Of a stretch of DNA of 40,857 nucleotides, positions 3,109 to 9,653 are shown piece by piece. The notes beneath the pieces were generated by a model. It was not told the DNA's origin and did no database searches. It saw nothing but the letters and a program-made list of their open reading frames with translations. The stretch's first letter is position 1. Every line of letters begins with the position of its first letter. The translations under genes and the position numbers were made by a program. The DNA comes from an uncultured Fibrobacteria bacterium (lineage in GTDB: Bacteria; Fibrobacterota; Fibrobacteria; UBA5070), in the NCBI GenBank assembly GCA_964469025.1, contig CAYXXL010000001.1, positions 1 through 40,857 on the forward strand, given 5' to 3'.

Positions 3109-3368
3109 GCCTTCGGCCATTGCGCTGCGCTTGGTTTACAGGGGCCAGCCGCGGCCCCTGTACCCGGCGGCCAAAGGAGCCGTGCGCTCGGCTCCTTTGG
3201 AATCCTGAGCGCCAGGGGGTTCAGACTCTCCGGGCGTCCCTTCCGTGTTTCTCCATCGGCCCGCATGGGCCGATGGCCAGCCTGGACGCCCTCCGAATAG
3301 CTTCACCCCCTGGACCCCTGCCGGTTTCTGCCGGGCTCGCATTGGCCCCTTTCGGGGCCTCGCTCGGC
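3109..3368. repeat. Composite GC-rich palindromic repeat, copy A
   Basis: 3109-3165 matches 8740-8798 and 3317-3368 matches 8798-8848 (copy C). About 150 bp in between is extra sequence. Perfect hairpins: tacaggggcc/ggcccctgta (3137-3162), ccaaaggagccg/cggctcctttgg (3171-3200) and ccatcggccc/gggccgatgg (3253-3276). The reverse complement of 3137-3205 aligns with copies B and D. Confidence 0.7.
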
Positions 3369-3422
3369 GGGGTTGGTTCCTGGTTGGGTTACGAACGCCG
3401 TCAGCCTGTCGCGGCCAACGGT

Positions 3423-3869
3423 TCACAGCAATCGCGATTCCATCGGCTCGAACTGCTGGAGAAAATGGTCGAACGTGACGTCCGTGATGTTCAGGTCGCT
3501 TTTGGCGCTGCCCTGGCGGGCTTGGTTTCTGGCTCGGCACTCCTCGATGGATGTGTCCAGGACCACCCAAGTGAAAGGCAGTCCCAACTCCGCCAGCCGT
3601 TCCTCCATCCGGGATCGCGAAGCCCGCGTCCAAAACCCGTAGTCCAGGATCACGGGCGTGCCAGATCTTGCCGCAGGGATCCAGATCGACTCGAACAGGA
3701 CCAGGAGATCCGTCAGATGCGTCGGGAACTCACTCGCCGGTGGATCGGACCCGAACAAGACGGACATCCATTCGTCCGGAGAGAACCGAAGCGCGCCGAA
3801 CTCCCGCTCCAACGCCTTCGCCCGCGTGGTTTTGCCCGACCCGATGAACCCGTGCATCAGGAAAATCAC
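3423..3869 (-). CDS. Small P-loop kinase-like ATP-binding protein (AAA_33-like)
   Basis: 148-aa ORF with a GTG start. MIFLMHGFIGSGKTTRAKAL is a strand followed by Walker A. Size and layout fit small nucleotide or shikimate/gluconate-type kinases. Confidence 0.7.
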   Translation of the reverse strand: MIFLMHGFIGSGKTTRAKALEREFGALRFSPDEWMSVLFGSDPPASEFPTHLTDLLVLFESIWIPAARSGTPVILDYGFWTRASRSRMEERLAELGLPFTWVVLDTSIEECRARNQARQGSAKSDLNITDVTFDHFLQQFEPMESRLL

Positions 3870-3875
3870 CGGGGC

Positions 3876-3953
3876 TCACCCACGGAATGGATCATCGGAC
3901 TCCGCCCGCCGAATCGCACCCGCGATTGCGCCCTTCCCCGCCAAAGGACTCAT
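3876..3953 (-). pseudogene. Remnant of a GNAT 5' end (25 codons then stop) immediately upstream of the P-loop kinase gene
   Basis: ATG 3953 gives MSPLAGKGAIAGAIRRAESDDPFRG-stop. This parallels VSPLAGEGAIAGAIRQAESGDLPAIL at the start of the GNAT at 7919. The stop lies 6 nt before the kinase GTG. Confidence 0.6.
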
Positions 3954-3972
3954 GCCGGAAAAACTACACCGC
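3891..3972 (-). repeat. 82-bp leader repeat, copy 1 (GNAT 5' end plus about 19 bp upstream)
   Basis: Hand alignment with 7857-7938 gives 72 of 82 identical positions with no gaps. Confidence 0.85.
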
Positions 3973-4156
3973 GAGGTGATCGGAGATGACGTCCGGTTCT
4001 TTCATCCGACGCAATTTTCCGTTAGTGAGTGTGGGAATTCCAGGAACCCAAGGGGGCTCAGCGATCTACGGTGGCCGATCATCCGATCGGAATAGTGCTT
4101 CCCCGAGACGGGTTGCGCTGTGGCACGTGGCGCATGCGCGGGGCTTTCTTTGCGCC

Positions 4157-6685
4157 TCAGCTCATTCCCGTGGTGGCCTTCAATTCCAAGCCGTCGCGGT
4201 ACAGGCGTGCCACAAAAATCTTGTCAGGCGATTTTTGGTCCTGGGAACGGATCACGTTCAAAACACCCACATCAACCAGCTTTGGAAGGATGTCCGTCTC
4301 CAAGAATTGGGCGATTATCTGCTTCTTGCCCTTGGAAAGGTTGTGTTGTAAATGCGCAACAAATTCCTGCAGCGAGGATGCAGGCTTCGCACCCTTCATC
4401 GCCTCGAGATATTCACGAAGCTCGAGGTACTCGTCAGTCAGGTCTTTTACTCGCTTGCGGCTTGCCTCTTCAATCCCTGCGCGAAGACTGGGATAGCGCA
4501 GGATGCGATCACCTCTAACATCACCGGACGATTCCGCTTCGGCCTTCCAGCTGCGTTCCACCATCTGCATGATGGTGCGAGGGAACAATCGTTCCTGGGA
4601 ATCCTGGATACGATTCAGTATGTAATTGGCGGTATAGGCGCGTTTCCCCTTCTCGATCTTCTCGCCCCACAATGGAAAAAGGGCACGACGCAACTCCGTG
4701 ATGTCTCCCGAGATGGACGATGGATCCTTCAGCATCTCCTCGCATGCCGGATCCCGTCGGACCACCTTTAGGACCAGTCTCCAAAGATCACGTTCCTCGA
4801 AGCGAAGGGTGCGCGTGATCGGCTCCAGATGGCTGCGATTCTGCATCTTGACCGCTAACCATATGTCCTCTCGAAGAAAGACCTTGAACTGAACTCTCTT
4901 AAGCCGTGTGCGCCACTGGGCAAGCAATTGGAGCAGGCCGACAACATATCGATCCCTGCGCGGAGTCCAATCCTCTGGATTGGTGTTCTGGAATCCAGTA
5001 TCCAGCCCATCAAAGACCAGGCACAGACCCTGTGTACCCGACATCAGATGCTTGTCTGCGGCCTTCAGCAGATCCTCTGCTTCCAAGGCGGCATCCCTGG
5101 ACTTCAGCAACGGAATGATCGTCTTGTAACCGGGCTCATCCCAGAAAGACTCTAACTTGGGACGCATCGGTCGCCTGACGCTTGCCAAGAGAACCGGTTT
5201 GATGTCTGCTTGATGGCGAACAATCGCTTGTAGGCACCAGTAGATCCAGAAAACATCATGGGCTCCAGAGTTTACAAGTCCGGAATCCTTCTCGATCTTC
5301 TCGAAGTGATCCTTGCTTAGAAAGGGCGCTTCCGCCAAATCCGCACGAGGTGACAAACCCACCAGATATTCGACATCGAAAGGAACCGGAAGGAGATCTC
5401 GATTGCGACTGGGGTTTGTCAGGTACTTCCATAGAAAGCTCTTGCCCGCACCCTTGGCTCCGATGACCAGATGGATGGAACGATCCACAGCCGCCCGGGC
5501 ATCCTCGGAATCGATTAAGGTCTCCTCGATTTCTTGAAGCGACAGGTTTTCGCCGTAGCCGAAGCGCTCCGACAGGTTTGAGGCCTGAAGGATGCGACGT
5601 CGTTCGATGACTCGCTCAGGTCCAGTGTCTTCGGTCTTGCCTAATGCCCCCGCAAGCACCTGTGACAGATTACGGAATATGTCCTGCGGGCCCACCGCAC
5701 CCAAGGGAAGGGGGATCTTGTTCGCACTCCACACCCTGGCGTCCTGATCTATTCCCTCTTCCAAAATCACGATGGATGACTCGCCGGACTCCTCATCCGT
5801 TGACTCGCGGGCATCCAGCAGTTCGGCATTCAATCGTTCGATCATCCGCTTCAAACGAGGATTTCCGTCCTTGCCAGGCAAAACCAGGCTGGGCACGAAA
5901 ATCAGCGTAGGAACTGCACCCCGTGCCTTGCGCGTCTTCACGAAAGCATCACGAATGACCCTCACACCGTCCCAGATCTGATCGGACACCGGAAGGAAGA
6001 CGACAATCGCGTCGGCAACATGGAACATCGCTGTTGCAGATAGAGCAGTGAAGCCTGTCCGGCAATCCAGGAACAGCGCATCGCGCTCCGGACTCGACAA
6101 TTCCTCCAACAGGCGCCGCAACGGATTCGGGCGCTCCGGCTCATATGCATGCCAAAGACCGACTCCCAACTCCTCGAGCTGCGCCAGATAGACCTCGTCG
6201 AGCCTTCCGGCCGGCAGGATCTCGATGCGTCCACCTTCGGAGCCGAGGGATTCGGGAACAGTCAACATTTGGCTGACTGCATCCAGGCTTCCCGGAAATG
6301 GCTGGCTGGCTGCCTCGGACAGCAGAGCCATTGATCCCTTCTCCACGACATCGGATGCGTACCCGAATAGCTGCGCTAGACCGGGTGCTTCGAGATCCAA
6401 ATCCACAATCCCGATCTTGCGGCCTTGACGAGCCAGCAGTGCCGCTACGTAGCCCAATGCGGTGCTGCGGCCTGCACCACCCTTGAAGCCATAGAACGCC
6501 ACAATCGGAGTCTTCTGCTCGTTCACAGGATCGATTTCAGAAGATGCTTTCTTTTCGATTGGTTGCATTTGCAAGATGTCGAAGAAACTCGCCGGACTGA
6601 ACATGGCGGGCACCGCCGACTCAGCAGGAGCCAGCTCTTCGCGAGCCTCCAGAACCTGACCAGCTTTTTTCCGAGTCATGGTCAT
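4157..6685 (-). CDS. 842-aa double P-loop protein: ParA/MinD-like module with KGGxGR Walker A, NACHT/STAND-like NTPase module, helical C-terminal region
   Basis: ORF 4157..6715. I prefer ATG 6685, which has GGAGG upstream and overlaps the stop of the upstream gene as ATGA.
- Module 1: VAFYGFKGGAGRSTALGYVAALLA (6461-6490), IVDLDLEAPGL and LFLDCRTGF.
- Module 2: Walker A VIGAKGAGKS (5438-5461) and Walker B LCLVFDGLD (5000-5026).
- No recognisable effector domain.
- Hand-counted GC is 45-57%. Confidence 0.8.
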   Translation of the reverse strand: MTMTRKKAGQVLEAREELAPAESAVPAMFSPASFFDILQMQPIEKKASSEIDPVNEQKTPIVAFYGFKGGAGRSTALGYVAALLARQGRKIGIVDLDLEAPGLAQLFGYASDVVEKGSMALLSEAASQPFPGSLDAVSQMLTVPESLGSEGGRIEILPAGRLDEVYLAQLEELGVGLWHAYEPERPNPLRRLLEELSSPERDALFLDCRTGFTALSATAMFHVADAIVVFLPVSDQIWDGVRVIRDAFVKTRKARGAVPTLIFVPSLVLPGKDGNPRLKRMIERLNAELLDARESTDEESGESSIVILEEGIDQDARVWSANKIPLPLGAVGPQDIFRNLSQVLAGALGKTEDTGPERVIERRRILQASNLSERFGYGENLSLQEIEETLIDSEDARAAVDRSIHLVIGAKGAGKSFLWKYLTNPSRNRDLLPVPFDVEYLVGLSPRADLAEAPFLSKDHFEKIEKDSGLVNSGAHDVFWIYWCLQAIVRHQADIKPVLLASVRRPMRPKLESFWDEPGYKTIIPLLKSRDAALEAEDLLKAADKHLMSGTQGLCLVFDGLDTGFQNTNPEDWTPRRDRYVVGLLQLLAQWRTRLKRVQFKVFLREDIWLAVKMQNRSHLEPITRTLRFEERDLWRLVLKVVRRDPACEEMLKDPSSISGDITELRRALFPLWGEKIEKGKRAYTANYILNRIQDSQERLFPRTIMQMVERSWKAEAESSGDVRGDRILRYPSLRAGIEEASRKRVKDLTDEYLELREYLEAMKGAKPASSLQEFVAHLQHNLSKGKKQIIAQFLETDILPKLVDVGVLNVIRSQDQKSPDKIFVARLYRDGLELKATTGMS

Positions 6686-7134
6686 GCCTCCACCATCGCG
6701 AGAACGATGTCGCAAAGATCCAACTCTTCCTGTGCTTCAGGGAGGGAAAGATTTTCCATCCCGTAGCGCAGGCTGTAAGGACGTTCCGGTTCTTTGGATT
6801 TTATCCTGTTCCAAACATTCCCTGTCAACGGCGATTCCTTCCCCAGTGTGATGCATAGTCGCGGCCAAACCGCTTCCTGGGAAAGTCCGCCCAGATCATG
6901 CCCGTTTTTCCCTTTGAAGATCTTGTCCCAAAGGTCCGGATGCTTGTCTTTGAAGGTGCTCAAGCGGGAACAATGGTAGAGCCCAAGAATTCTTGCCTTG
7001 AACGCGCACTCCAGGGCAATCTGGGCCAGATAGGCCGCAGGTATCGGCTTCGTCGCGTTTTGCAAGGCGACTGCTCCGTGATAGGTGTTGCGCGCATGTC
7101 TGAGGAGGTGCGCTTTGTCCAAGATAGCGGTCAA
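6682..7134 (-). CDS. 150-aa HEPN-like protein, first gene of the two-gene operon
   Basis: TTG start at 7134 with GGGGGAG 8 nt upstream. Pattern LECAFKARILG ... KNGHDLGGL ... YSLRYG mirrors EKALKA ... THDLGKL ... FRY of the MNT-partnered HEPN at 8867-9266. An N-terminal RHARNTYH could be read as Rx6H. The stop overlaps the next start. Confidence 0.6.
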   Translation of the reverse strand: MTAILDKAHLLRHARNTYHGAVALQNATKPIPAAYLAQIALECAFKARILGLYHCSRLSTFKDKHPDLWDKIFKGKNGHDLGGLSQEAVWPRLCITLGKESPLTGNVWNRIKSKEPERPYSLRYGMENLSLPEAQEELDLCDIVLAMVEA

Positions 7135-7361
7135 GATTGCTTCTCCCCCTCATGCCCTGGAATTCGCTTGTGGGCGAGGGCGGGTCTCATCATTGCGGAT
7201 CTCCTTCCGTCCTGTCAACGAGGGACAACGGAAGCATGGAATTTAGGCCACGGGTTTCCTTCCGGATAGGCAGGTTCTCCATCATTTTCACGAAAATTCC
7301 AGTCCTTCACTGGTCCAGCCGCCTTCTGGGGCTATCAGGCCGCGCTCCCTACACCCAGAAT

Positions 7362-7422
7362 GGACAGTGCCACAACCCGCCCGCCCTGCCGAAAGCACGA
7401 CGGGCAGTGGGCTGGACTGTCC
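7362..7422 (-). other. Compound imperfect hairpin between the GNAT stop and the operon promoter region
   Basis: Outer arms are GGACAGT (7362-7368) and ACTGTCC (7416-7422). Inner arms are CCTGCCG (7385-7391) and CGGGCAG (7401-7407), which pair with one bulged base. No U-run follows, so this is not a canonical intrinsic terminator. Confidence 0.35.
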
Positions 7423-7448
7423 TTGGGTTGGCTCAATTGGATGTAGGG

Positions 7449-7919
7449 TCACAGCCGGAGTTCGTAGCCCTGCTTGGAGTCGGGATTGAAGCCCGCCGCC
7501 TCGTAGAACATATGGGCCTCCGATCGCTTCTTGCTGCTCTGGAGCAACACCTTGTAGCAGTCGTGCGCCTTGGCGATGGAGACGGCCTCGGCCATCAGGC
7601 GCGTTCCGTGCTTGAGCCTTCGAAATCCATCCGCGACGACCACGTTCTCGATCACCCCGAAGGGACGTCCGGATCTTGTCAAGTTGGGGATGATGGAAAG
7701 ATTGCAGGTCCCGACGACACCGGAAGGTCCATCCACGACCAAGTAGACCAGATTCCGACTGCCACGGATCTCGTTCCAGAGAGTCGCTGCCTTTGCCGGG
7801 TCCAACGGATCATCGTCGGGATTGAGCTGGGCATAGAGTGCCAGGATCGCCGGCAAATCACCGGATTCCGCCTGCCGGATCGCACCCGCAATTGCGCCCT
7901 CTCCCGCCAATGGACTCAC
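7449..7919 (-). CDS. GNAT family N-acetyltransferase
   Basis: ORF 7449..8084, trimmed to GTG 7919 because the duplicated copy has ATG at the homologous position. The fold pattern includes FGVIENVVVADGFRRLKHGTRLM (acetyl-CoA binding region) and FYEAAGF at the C-terminus. Confidence 0.75.
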   Translation of the reverse strand: MSPLAGEGAIAGAIRQAESGDLPAILALYAQLNPDDDPLDPAKAATLWNEIRGSRNLVYLVVDGPSGVVGTCNLSIIPNLTRSGRPFGVIENVVVADGFRRLKHGTRLMAEAVSIAKAHDCYKVLLQSSKKRSEAHMFYEAAGFNPDSKQGYELRL

Positions 7920-7938
7920 GCCGGAAAAGCTACACCGC
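7857..7938 (-). repeat. 82-bp leader repeat, copy 2 (authentic GNAT 5' end)
   Basis: See 3891-3972; 72 of 82 positions are identical. Confidence 0.85.
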
Positions 7939-8001
7939 CAGCCAGTCGGCGAGCGAAAGCGAGCCGCCCGCGACGACGGCGGGGGTCCGCGGGGAATCCA
8001 A

Positions 8002-8059
8002 GGGGCCACGCGGTCGGCCCCTTGGCCGGGGTACAGGGGCCCGGCGGCCCTTGTACATC
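8002..8059 (+). repeat. GC-rich palindromic repeat, copy B
   Basis: 56 of 58 positions are identical to 9654-9711. Hairpins: ccaaggggcc/ggccccttgg (7998-8025, perfect 10 bp) and gtacaggggcc/ggcccttgtac (8031-8056, one mismatch). Confidence 0.85.
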
Positions 8060-8113
8060 GAGGCTGCACCGCCAGGCGCAACAAAGCCCCGCGCAGCGAA
8101 AGGTCCCCGTACG

Positions 8114-8713
8114 TCAGGACGGAAACCCGCAGAACGGATCATCCTTCCCGTCCTCGTTCCAGACGTGCTCGAGCGCAGCCGCGACCTTGCGGGCGACTTC
8201 CGGTCGGATCTTGTCCGCCACGAACCCCAGCGCCATGTCGATCCCCGCGGTGATCCCGGACGAGGTCCAGAACTTGCCGTCCACGACCCAGGGCGCCTTG
8301 CGGATCCAGCGGACCTTTGGTCCCTGCGTCACCACCCAGTCCCACGCCAACTTGTTGCTGGTCGCCTCGCGGCCATCCAGCAACCCCGCCCGGGCCAGCA
8401 GGGCCGATCCGGTGCAGACGCTCAGGACCGTTCCCGCCTTCTCGACAATCCCTCGCAGGAGATCCAGGAAGGGCGCATCCTCCACCAGTCCCCGCGTCCC
8501 GAGTCCACCGGGCACCAGCAGGATGTCGCTTTCCAGGACCTCCTCCACCGGCTGGGTGTCCACCCTGGCTCCAGTGGAACTGGTCACCAGTCCCCCGTTG
8601 CGAGAGTGGTAGGAGATGCAGAACTGCCCCTCCAGCTTGGAAAACACCTCGGTGGGGCCCATGGCATCCAACGTCGTGAACCCGTCGAAAAGAAGGACAT
8701 GGATGTGTTGCAT
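8114..8713 (-). CDS. DJ-1/PfpI family protein (class I glutamine amidotransferase-like fold)
   Basis: 199 aa with an ATG start. Diagnostic stretches are MQHIHVLLFDGFTTLDAMGP, LLVPGG, the nucleophile elbow VLSVCTGSALLA, and TSSGITAGIDMAL. Confidence 0.8.
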   Translation of the reverse strand: MQHIHVLLFDGFTTLDAMGPTEVFSKLEGQFCISYHSRNGGLVTSSTGARVDTQPVEEVLESDILLVPGGLGTRGLVEDAPFLDLLRGIVEKAGTVLSVCTGSALLARAGLLDGREATSNKLAWDWVVTQGPKVRWIRKAPWVVDGKFWTSSGITAGIDMALGFVADKIRPEVARKVAAALEHVWNEDGKDDPFCGFPS

Positions 8714-8866: not shown

Positions 8867-9266
8867 CTACGACTGCATTCCGCCCGGAAGATCGCCGTGT
8901 ACTCGACTGTACAAGGCCTGCAAAGAGACGACAATTTCCCTTCGTGGAAGCGGATCGCTGTCTTCGGGCAATCCGTCGTATCGAAATTGGACCGCGAACG
9001 AAGTCCAACGGGTCAAAGGCCATAGCGGCGCAGGGTCTACACCCAATCTTTCGAGAATCGGAATCAACTTCCCGAGATCATGCGTCGGTGGATATTCTCC
9101 GCCGAGCCGTGAAATCCAAGCCTTCAACGCCTTTTCCGTAGGCCTGCTGCGCATGAAATTCGAAAATCTCCTCGGCGAGTTCCTTGGAATATTCGAAGAT
9201 TTCGAGAGCCCGGAGATCCTTCCGACCCATCTCCAGGATGGACTCCCATTCCTCAGACATGCCCAT
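8867..9266 (-). pseudogene. HEPN domain protein (MNT partner, TA toxin-like) interrupted by a frameshift
   Basis: Two overlapping ORFs in different frames: 9078..9266 (..EIFEFHAQQAYGKGVEGL) and 8867..9154 (..TEKALKAWISRLGGEYPPTHDLGKL..FRYDG). Removing 1 nt within 9137-9140 restores FHAQQA-x-EKALKAW. The start overlaps the MNT gene by 14 nt. Confidence 0.7.
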
Positions 9267-9600
9267 GCAGGAGGCGTCTTTCGCGCAAGGCGCGGGCGAT
9301 CACGTGGTTGAGGGAATTTCGTCGCGCTTGGACCTCCTGCGGCGTGTAGAGCAGAAGGTCGACGCCCATGGGAAGCACGGAAAGTTCCCGGTAGATCCGG
9401 CCCAGGATTTCGTATCCGGGAGACCCTCCCAACGCATCCTTCCCAGCCACGATCAGAAGATCCATGTCCGAACCAGGATGGCTGTCACCCCGAGCTTGCG
9501 ACCCGAAAAGGATGATGGCCTCCGCTTCGAGATGCGCCAGCACTGCCCGGACGACCAGATCGAGTTCCATCTGCGTTGCGGTGGCCATGGCCGAAAACAT
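9253..9600 (-). CDS. Nucleotidyltransferase (MNT-type antitoxin-like)
   Basis: 115 aa. ILFGSQARGDSHPGSDMDLLIV is the GSxxRG..D.D minimal nucleotidyltransferase signature. It sits upstream of the HEPN gene and overlaps it. Confidence 0.8.
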   Translation of the reverse strand: MFSAMATATQMELDLVVRAVLAHLEAEAIILFGSQARGDSHPGSDMDLLIVAGKDALGGSPGYEILGRIYRELSVLPMGVDLLLYTPQEVQARRNSLNHVIARALRERRLLHGHV

Positions 9601-9653
9601 ACACCGGCGCTCCGCTTGGACCTGCGGTCGTCGCGCTTCGCTTGCTTCGCACC

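What the first reader, a model, noticed from the sequence alone, without database searches (positions are those of the whole stretch)
3876..3972. An 82-bp GNAT leader (upstream region plus the first 21 codons) is duplicated in front of an unrelated gene, a footprint of cargo swapping
3891-3972 and 7857-7938 are direct repeats with 72 of 82 identical positions and no gaps. At 7919 the repeat starts the intact GNAT (VSPLAGEGAIAGAIRQAESGD...). At 3953 it encodes MSPLAGKGAIAGAIRRAESDD, then diverges and stops after 25 codons, 6 nt before the GTG of the P-loop kinase. The two copies bracket the GNAT body and the low-GC operon. Either recombination between leaders moves cargo, or a second GNAT was truncated when the kinase or the operon inserted. 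The remnant mini-ORF could also act as an upstream ORF coupled to the kinase gene.
Basis: seen in the sequence. Interest (0 to 1): 0.6.

Follow-up and report, generated by a model that had tools for sequence, protein, structure and literature searches.

The report
Stump of a deleted GNAT gene
The duplicated 82-96 bp "leader" is real, but it is the leftover front end (promoter box, start codon, 21 codons) of a second acetyltransferase gene whose body was deleted, an ordinary scar in a shuffled gene island that probably still switches on the kinase gene behind it.

Summary
The repeat is real: 72/82 identical without gaps, extending to 96 nt (3891-3986 vs 7857-7952). There are only two copies in the genome, and independent assemblies show the same sequence.

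Copy A is not a mobile leader. It is the 5' stump of a second GNAT gene. It holds a Bacteroidetes-type -7 promoter box (TAGTTTTT) 5 nt before the ATG, then 21 codons. At a GAT(GAT) microhomology these join a 19-nt stump of a DJ-1/PfpI gene's 3' end. That stump supplies 'DDPFRG' and the stop 6 nt before the AAA_33 kinase GTG.

- Four related metagenome contigs still carry an intact GNAT (88% identical) at this position, fused to a longer 41-nt DJ-1 stump before the same kinase. A 427-nt deletion there would give copy A.
- A same-genus genome lacks window 3370-7441 entirely.
- In every other lineage found, the leader precedes only the GNAT.
- Copy A is no closer to copy B than to leaders of other lineages, and their longest exact run is 11 nt. 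Ongoing cargo swapping between the copies is therefore not supported.

The stump probably still acts as promoter plus leaderless mini-ORF for the kinase. This is inferred, not tested. It is ordinary gene decay and of low interest.

The parts
3891..3986 (-). Copy A: the 5' stump of a second GNAT gene. It runs from about 33 nt upstream of the start through the first 21 codons. The -7 box TAGTTTTT is at 3966-3959, the spacer CCGGC at 3958-3954, and the ATG at 3953-3951.
   Evidence: 72/82 and 80/96 identity to copy B. 86-87% identity to GNAT leaders of L049 and L050-L053. Motif position.
3876..3953 (-). Mini-ORF of 25 codons plus stop: MSPLAGKGAIAGAIRRAESDDPFRG*. Codons 1-21 come from the GNAT. 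Codons 20-25 and the stop come from DJ-1.
   Evidence: Translation. Junction analysis.
3878..3896 (-). 19-nt stump of the 3' end of a DJ-1/PfpI gene (GATGATCCATTCCGTGGGT). It matches 16/19 positions of window 8144-8126. Relatives carry longer versions: 41 nt in L050-L053 and about 58 nt in L045.
   Evidence: Local alignments. BLAST of L050 533-573 against window 8165-8125 gives 92.7%.
3423..3869 (-). Intact AAA_33 P-loop kinase of 148 aa with a GTG start. It is the gene behind copy A.
   Evidence: Pfam PF13671, 8.1e-26, covering positions 2-142 of the 143-position model. Homologues begin at the same residue.
3987..4120 (-). 134-nt spacer of unknown origin, between the end of the stretch shared with L045 and copy A.
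   Evidence: No match in the own genome, the genus or any fetched locus. Boundaries.
4157..7134 (-). Low-GC two-gene operon: a 150-aa HEPN-like protein and an 852-aa ParA-like plus STAND-like NTPase (PDC-M28B+C fusion). It is bracketed by the two leader copies. A sigma-70-like promoter match lies at 7218-7189.
   Evidence: PADLOC PDC-M28B 3.8e-27 and PDC-M28C 1.3e-23. Pfam, GC, promoter scan.
3370..7441 (.). 4,072-nt segment absent from the syntenic locus of a same-genus genome (G004). There the GNAT stop is followed within about 25 nt by the REP element.
   Evidence: blastn of the window against L024: 1-3369 and 7442-8739 are collinear and adjacent.
7857..7952 (-). Copy B: the leader of the intact GNAT. 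The -7 box TAGCTTTT is at 7932-7925, the spacer at 7924-7920, and the GTG at 7919-7917.
   Evidence: The same leader is conserved before the GNAT in G004, L049 and L050-L053.
7449..7919 (-). Intact GNAT N-acetyltransferase of 156 aa.
   Evidence: Pfam Acetyltransf_1, 8.6e-13. Orthologues at 86-90% identity.
8114..8713 (-). DJ-1/PfpI gene. Its 3' end (8165-8125, ...WNEDGKDDPFCG...) is the source sequence of the stump in front of the kinase.
   Evidence: Pfam DJ-1_PfpI, 2.6e-22. Alignments.
3109..3371 (.). GC-rich REP-like element that forms the downstream border of the kinase module. It is shared by G004, L045 and L050-L053.

Best explanation
**What it is.** Copy A is a gene stump. A second GNAT gene once stood intact directly upstream of the kinase. 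It was fused at its end to a short leftover of a DJ-1/PfpI gene's 3' end, and that leftover carried the stop codon 6 nt before the kinase start. This arrangement still exists in related bacteria.

**How it arose.** In the window's lineage an internal deletion of about 427 nt removed GNAT codons 22-156 and the front of the DJ-1 leftover. The two ends joined at a GAT/TGAT microhomology. What remains is the GNAT's promoter box, its start codon and 21 codons, now reading in frame into the DJ-1 leftover (DDPFRG, stop).

**How the two copies came together.** The resident intact GNAT (copy B) and the low-GC defence-candidate operon now lie upstream of the stump. They form a 4.1-kb block that a same-genus relative lacks. 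The island is built of small modules bordered by REP elements and arranged differently in each lineage. The two leader copies are therefore a by-product of that shuffling plus gene decay. They are not a working recombination site.

**What it probably still does (inferred).**
- The stump keeps an intact Bacteroidetes-type -7 box 5 nt before an ATG.
- Transcription should therefore start at or next to the ATG, giving a leaderless mRNA.
- Ribosomes would translate the 25-codon mini-ORF, stop 6 nt before the kinase GTG and re-initiate there.
- This would give the kinase its own expression, independent of the operon upstream.
For: **Intact gene at the same place in relatives.**
- Contigs L050-L053, from four JGI samples, carry leader, intact 162-aa GNAT (88% identical), a 41-nt DJ-1 3' copy (93% to window 8165-8125), then the kinase with the identical start GGTGATTTTCCTGATGCACGG.
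- Deleting 427 nt there reproduces copy A's layout, including the shift into the DJ-1 reading frame.

**Shared derived character.** The window and L050-L053 kinases begin MIFL. L045 and more distant homologues begin MIYL, MIHL or MVYL.

**Nested stumps give the direction of change.** The DJ-1 leftover is about 58 nt in L045, 41 nt in L050-L053 and 19 nt in the window.

**Not a fresh copy of B.** Identities over 90 nt are A-B 74, A-L051 75 and A-L049 74, whereas B against the others is 80-81. Informative sites group A with L049/L051 4 (+1) times, with G004 twice and with B once.

**The leader is tied to the GNAT.**
- It precedes the GNAT in G004, L049 and L050-L053.
- No other full copy was found in the own genome, in the 10 genomes of the genus, in a pattern scan of 241 million metagenome records, or in a scan of 185,579 species genomes.

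**Empty site.** G004 is collinear on both sides and lacks 3370-7441.

**Promoter.**
- TAnnTTT[GT] lies 12-17 nt before the first ATG/GTG of 28 of 1,874 likely coding ORFs. The control is 8 of 33,757 internal ATG/GTG codons, about 63-fold lower.
- Both leader copies carry the box at -13.
- The extended form GTGTAnnTTT[TG] also precedes a tRNA gene, an mnmG-like gene, the MNT gene at 9604 and a DUF4160-like gene on C4.
- TAnnTTTG is the known -7 box of Bacteroidetes (PMC7366714).
Against: - **L045 conflicts with the simplest history.** It is the closest relative for the kinase (88%) and for the end of the 852-aa gene (94%). It has the operon next to the kinase with no GNAT stump, only a longer DJ-1 leftover. 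The order of events that put the operon, copy B and the stump in one locus is therefore unresolved, and more than one recombination between lineages is needed. Similarity along the kinase is also mosaic.
- **Thin phylogenetic signal.** Placing copy A with the L049/L051 leaders rests on only 4-5 sites in 90 nt.
- **Weaker promoter match.** Copy A shows no obvious -33 TTTG, and the box ends in T rather than G.
- **The open mini-ORF proves little.** A 25-codon open frame in GC-rich DNA is not evidence of selection.
Confidence: 0.7

Rival explanations
1. Promoter duplication in place. After the low-GC operon, with its terminator-like end, was inserted between the GNAT and the kinase, a short copy of the resident GNAT's promoter and leader was placed in front of the kinase by template switching. 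It was kept because it restored kinase expression.
For: L045 shows the operon directly upstream of the DJ-1 leftover and kinase, without any leader. This could be the state before duplication. Copy A keeps the -7 box, and its start codon is ATG instead of GTG.
Against: - Copy A is no closer to copy B than to leaders in other lineages. It shares 4-5 sites with L049/L051 against B.
- The window's kinase 5' end and DJ-1 leftover carry the derived states of L050-L053, not those of L045.
- The 134-nt spacer that came with copy A has no source in the genome.
Confidence: 0.12
2. Single-crossover (Campbell-type) integration. A circular DNA carrying leader, GNAT, operon and spacer recombined once with a chromosomal leader that already stood before the kinase. 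This duplicated the leader on both sides of the insert: a one-off cargo gain through the leader.
For: - The two copies are direct repeats that exactly bracket the GNAT body, operon and spacer.
- The upstream end of the repeat (3986) coincides with the start of unique spacer DNA. The downstream end (3891) coincides with the deletion junction.
- The DJ-1 3' end is likewise duplicated around the GNAT module in L050-L053.
Against: - The same-genus empty site (G004) has leader and GNAT followed by REP. It does not have leader, stump and kinase, so the insert boundaries seen by comparison (3370/7441) are not the repeat boundaries.
- The copies differ at 16 of 96 positions.
- There is no recombinase gene nearby.
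- No circle or deletion variant could be looked for.
Confidence: 0.1
3. Active cargo swapping. The leader is a reusable recombination site that repeatedly exchanges the gene behind it.
For: What lies downstream of the GNAT differs in every lineage: REP in G004, MNT-HEPN in L049, the kinase in L050-L053, and the operon in the window.
Against: - The variation is behind the GNAT, not behind the leader. The leader is followed by the GNAT in all five other lineages.
- There are only two copies in the genome.
- The longest exact run between them is 11 nt, which is poor substrate for homologous recombination (the length requirement is from established knowledge of RecA-dependent recombination).
- No integrase lies nearby.
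- Three other assemblies show only the one arrangement.
Confidence: 0.05
4. Chance similarity, a generic repeat, or a mis-assembly.
For: None beyond the high GC content of the region.
Against: - E=1.7e-23 within the genome.
- No overlap with the REP family.
- No Rfam family, and no unusual folding.
- Identical sequence in independent assemblies.
Confidence: 0.01

Closest known systems
Gene remnants (pseudogene stumps) left by microhomology-mediated internal deletion in bacterial accessory islands
   Same: The 5' end is homologous to an intact gene. An intact copy stands at the same position in relatives. The homology breaks sharply at a 3-6 nt microhomology. Decay is reciprocal: relatives keep the GNAT but their kinase carries a stop codon.
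   Different: The stump keeps promoter and start codon. It reads in frame into a second stump (the DJ-1 3' end), so it forms a tidy 25-codon ORF ending 6 nt before the next gene.
Bacteroidetes-type promoters (-7 box TAnnTTTG; PMC7366714) with leaderless or very short-leader mRNAs
   Same: Both copies carry TAG(C/T)TTTT 5 nt before the start codon. The same motif at the same distance is about 63-fold enriched before gene starts in this genome.
   Different: The organism is labelled Fibrobacteria, not Bacteroidetes. The last base of the box is T, not G. No transcription start has been mapped.
Upstream ORFs and translational coupling by termination-reinitiation in operons
   Same: A short ORF ends 6 nt before the start of the downstream gene. 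This spacing was inherited from an older DJ-1-kinase gene pair.
   Different: The ORF is a chimera of two gene stumps. It is not a conserved leader peptide, it is found in one lineage only, and it has no attenuator structure.
Attachment-site duplications flanking integrated islands (attL/attR)
   Same: Direct repeats made of a gene end bracket foreign, low-GC DNA.
   Different: There is no integrase. The repeat is only 83% identical. The boundaries seen against the empty site do not coincide with the repeats. One repeat is demonstrably a deletion scar.

Membership tests
Gene remnant (5' stump of a GNAT gene) | Significant nucleotide homology to the 5' end of an intact gene | tested here: met
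   72/82 and 80/96 identity to copy B (E=1.7e-23), and 86-87% to the leaders of L049 and L050-L053.
Gene remnant (5' stump of a GNAT gene) | Reading frame cut short relative to the intact gene | tested here: met
   25 codons against 156. Homology ends after codon 21.
Gene remnant (5' stump of a GNAT gene) | Intact gene at the same position in relatives | tested here: met
   L050-L053 carry an intact GNAT, the DJ-1 leftover and the same kinase start. A 427-nt deletion gives copy A.
Site-specific recombination site or cassette junction (att/attC-like) | Recombinase or integrase gene associated with the site | tested here: not met
   ORFs in 1-12 kb are kinases, a 279-aa ORF with no Pfam match, the PDC-M28-like operon, GNAT, DJ-1 and HEPN/MNT. 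None is a recombinase.
Site-specific recombination site or cassette junction (att/attC-like) | The same site found in front of different cargo genes | tested here: not met
   The leader precedes only the GNAT elsewhere. No further copies were found in the genome, the genus, JGI metagenomes or 185,579 species genomes. The two collection scans needed exact pattern matches, so diverged copies could be missed.
Site-specific recombination site or cassette junction (att/attC-like) | Identical core shared by the two copies | tested here: not met
   The longest exact run is 11 nt, and 16 of 96 positions differ.
Generic GC-rich palindromic (REP-like) repeat of this genome | Many copies, hairpin-forming, intergenic | tested here: not met
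   Only two copies. Folding is no better than shuffles, with z of +0.75 and +1.6. REP copies lie elsewhere.
Bacteroidetes-type -7 promoter with leaderless start | TAnnTTTG-like box at the genome's usual distance from the start codon | tested here: met
   The box is at -13 in both copies. The genome-wide peak is at -12 to -17: 28 of 1,874 starts against 8 of 33,757 internal codons.
Bacteroidetes-type -7 promoter with leaderless start | Mapped transcription start at or next to the start codon | not testable with these tools
Regulatory leader peptide or attenuator | Conserved upstream ORF with alternative terminator/antiterminator structures | tested here: not met
   Other kinase homologues lack it. 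There is no Rfam hit and no stable structure.

The most novel reading that the evidence does not exclude
The modules of this island (DJ-1, GNAT, kinase, MNT/HEPN, PDC-M28-like operon) may be exchanged between lineages by recombination at short conserved gene-end sequences. The 96-nt GNAT 5' leader and the 41-nt DJ-1 3' end would then act as integrase-free cassette junctions, each leaving a duplicated gene end around the inserted module.
Probability: 0.07. Interest if true: 0.55.

Novelty: already known. Interest (0 to 1): 0.2.

Why it matters
The main value is in correcting the reading. The duplicated leader is a deletion scar, not a mobile element, so it should not be counted as a new recombination system.

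Two smaller points have some use:
- It is a clean, datable example of how an accessory gene can keep or gain its own promoter and translational coupling from the wreck of its upstream neighbour. The organism appears to use Bacteroidetes-style -7 promoters and leaderless starts.
- The comparison of five lineages shows that this region, next to the cell-division gene cluster, is a hot spot. Small REP-bordered modules, including a candidate defence operon, are gained, lost and reordered there.

Tried and rejected
- **Sequencing runs:** No test was possible for deletion or circle variants or for transcription.
- **Target-site duplication or terminal repeats** at the 3370/7441 boundaries and at the operon ends: none of 8 nt or more in direct orientation.
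- **Origin of the 134-nt spacer (3987-4120)** and of 7135-7448: no match in the genome, the genus or any fetched locus.
- **Known RNA family or special fold in the leader:** none. The 4165-3860 region folds no better than shuffles, so a strong terminator after the operon is not shown.
- **Sigma-70 promoter in the leader:** none by consensus scan. The only match lies before the 150-aa gene.
- **Kinase context in more distant relatives:** variable (after aconitase, after lexA-like, among small ORFs). It does not help to polarise the events.
- **Near relatives of the 150-aa and 852-aa proteins:** only the same strain was found in other assemblies.
- **24/26-nt match on contig C4:** considered as a possible third copy. 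It is only the shared promoter-start motif before a DUF4160-like gene.

Full report
**1.

All genes here are on the minus strand. Windows 3891-3972 and 7857-7938 match at 72 of 82 positions without gaps. The ungapped match extends to 96 nt, 3891-3986 vs 7857-7952, at 83%.

Copy A finds copy B in the 3.08-Mb assembly at E=1.7e-23 and finds no other full copy. Copy B opens a 156-aa GNAT at GTG 7919. Copy A opens MSPLAGKGAIAGAIRRAESDDPFRG* at ATG 3953. Its stop is at 3878-3876, 6 nt before GTG 3869 of a 148-aa AAA_33 kinase.

Between the copies lie the GNAT body and a 53-58% GC operon: a 150-aa gene and an 852-aa gene that matches PADLOC PDC-M28B and PDC-M28C. Three other assemblies are 100% identical across the region, so it is not a mis-join.

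**2. What relatives show.** Five arrangements were found.

- **(i) G004**, a same-genus genome labelled Fibrobacteria bacterium. It is collinear with the window on both sides but lacks 3370-7441. Its GNAT stop is followed almost at once by the REP element.
- **(ii) L049.** The order is DJ-1, GNAT (90% identical), MNT, HEPN.
- **(iii) L050-L053**, from four samples.
  - The leader is followed by an intact 162-aa GNAT (88% identical).
  - This GNAT has no stop of its own. It runs into a 41-nt copy of the DJ-1 3' end (93% to window 8165-8125).
  - Next comes the kinase with the identical start GGTGATTTTCCTGATGCACGG. That kinase carries an in-frame TAG.
- **(iv) L045.** The end of the 852-aa gene (94% identical) is followed by about 58 nt of degenerate DJ-1 3' sequence, then the kinase (88%), with no GNAT leader.
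- **(v) The window itself.**

**3. What copy A is.**

The last six codons of the mini-ORF (DDPFRG, stop) are the DJ-1 C-terminus (KDDPFCG). Window 3896-3878 matches 8144-8126 at 16 of 19 positions. Copy A is therefore a GNAT 5' end (to codon 21) joined to a DJ-1 3' stump at the shared GAT(GAT).

Taking arrangement (iii) and deleting 427 nt, from after GNAT codon 21 to the second GAT of the DJ-1 stump, gives exactly this layout. It also gives the shift into the DJ-1 reading frame.

Two further observations tie the window's module to arrangement (iii):
- Both share the derived kinase start MIFL. L045 and more distant homologues have MIYL, MIHL or MVYL.
- The DJ-1 stumps form a nested series of about 58, 41 and 19 nt. 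This gives the direction of change.

**4. Copy A is not a recent copy of copy B, and the leader is not mobile.**

Over 90 aligned nt, A-B is 74, A-L051 is 75, A-L049 is 74 and A-G004 is 69. B against the others is 80-81. The few informative sites group A with L049/L051 (4, plus 1 three-state site) rather than with B (1). The longest exact run between A and B is 11 nt.

The leader precedes only the GNAT in every other lineage. Nothing further turned up in the own genome, the genus, a pattern scan of JGI metagenomes (only arrangement iii) or a pattern scan of 185,579 species genomes (only G004). No recombinase lies nearby.

What varies between lineages is the DNA behind the GNAT, not the DNA behind the leader.

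**5. What the leader contains.**

The upstream part is a promoter box. In this genome TAnnTTT[GT] sits 12-17 nt before the first ATG/GTG of 28 of 1,874 likely coding ORFs. Before internal ATG/GTG codons the figure is 8 of 33,757.

Both copies have TAG(C/T)TTTT at -13, that is, 5 nt before the start. The extended form GTGTAnnTTT[TG] also precedes a tRNA gene, an mnmG-like gene, the MNT gene (9604) and a DUF4160-like gene on contig C4. This explains the 24/26 partial hit there. TAnnTTTG is the known -7 box of Bacteroidetes (PMC7366714).

With 5 nt to the start codon, the mRNA should be leaderless or nearly so. No Rfam family matches the leader, and it shows no unusual fold.

**6. Likely function (inferred).**

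Copy A keeps the box, has ATG where all GNATs have GTG, stays open for 25 codons, and ends at the old DJ-1 stop 6 nt before the kinase GTG. The simplest reading is that the stump now serves as the kinase's own promoter and as a short upstream ORF that hands ribosomes to the kinase.

**7. What remains open.**

The order of events that brought copy B, the operon and the stump together is unresolved.
- Against G004, the block 3370-7441 looks like one insertion ending at the REP element.
- L045 has the same operon beside the kinase with a longer DJ-1 stump and no leader.
- Similarity along the kinase is mosaic: it is closest to L045 in 3840-3700 and mixed elsewhere.
- In L053 the module's far flank matches another contig (C109) of the window's genome.

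Several recombination events between lineages, probably at REP elements, are needed. A single-crossover integration at the leader, or an in-place promoter duplication, cannot be excluded. They are listed as rivals.

**8. Verdict.**

The truncated-second-GNAT reading is supported, with a better mechanism: internal deletion of a GNAT that already preceded the kinase. The cargo-swapping reading is not supported. This is ordinary gene decay in a variable island, with a plausible but untested promoter-salvage role.

Noticed in passing
window 8125-8165 and 3878-3896; L050 533-573; L045 about 537-592: The 3' end of the DJ-1/PfpI gene is duplicated in front of the kinase, in three lineages, with three different lengths and left junctions. 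This implies an older DJ-1-kinase gene pair into which the GNAT module was later inserted.
   Followed up: partly
whole genome G000 (for example C6:3688, C7:14656, C99:7654, C1:32977): A Bacteroidetes-like -7 box TAnnTTT[GT] lies 12-17 nt before start codons, about 63-fold above control. It also lies before a tRNA gene. This suggests widespread leaderless or very short-leader transcripts in this Fibrobacteria-labelled MAG. No paper in the library links this motif to Fibrobacter.
   Followed up: partly
window 9604 (MNT start), 7935 and 3969; C4:14594: Four small accessory genes (MNT, GNAT, the GNAT stump and a DUF4160-like gene) share the extended start module CGGTGTA(G/T)nTTTTC, then a 4-nt gap, then ATG or GTG (5 nt from the 8-nt box to the start).
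   Followed up: partly
L049 7395-8624 versus window 8867-9600: The MNT-HEPN pair sits downstream of the GNAT in L049 but upstream of DJ-1 in the window. The modules are permuted between lineages.
   Followed up: no
L050-L053 (kinase codon 83): Decay is reciprocal. Where the GNAT upstream of the kinase is intact, the kinase carries an in-frame TAG in all four contigs. In the window the kinase is intact and that GNAT is gone.
   Followed up: yes
L050 1055-1537; L053 5532-6044: A very AT-rich 160-aa ORF is inserted between the kinase and the REP element in the L050-L053 lineage only.
   Followed up: no
window 7189-7218 (minus strand): The only sigma-70-like promoter match in 3300-8200 (TTGACA, 18 nt, AATGAT) lies before the low-GC 150-aa gene. 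This fits a foreign origin for that operon.
   Followed up: no
window 3440-3890 versus L045 and L053: Similarity along the kinase gene is mosaic. The 5' 30 nt are like L053, 3840-3700 is almost identical to L045, and the 3' half is mixed. This points to recombination between lineages within the gene.
   Followed up: partly
L053 1-5452 versus G000 contig C109 2914-8395: The far flank of the GNAT-kinase module in L053 is 88% identical to a different contig of the window's genome. There, the REP element is followed by a reading frame I read by eye as the C-terminal part of a type I restriction HsdR; this was not checked with a family search. REP elements mark rearrangement breakpoints.
   Followed up: partly
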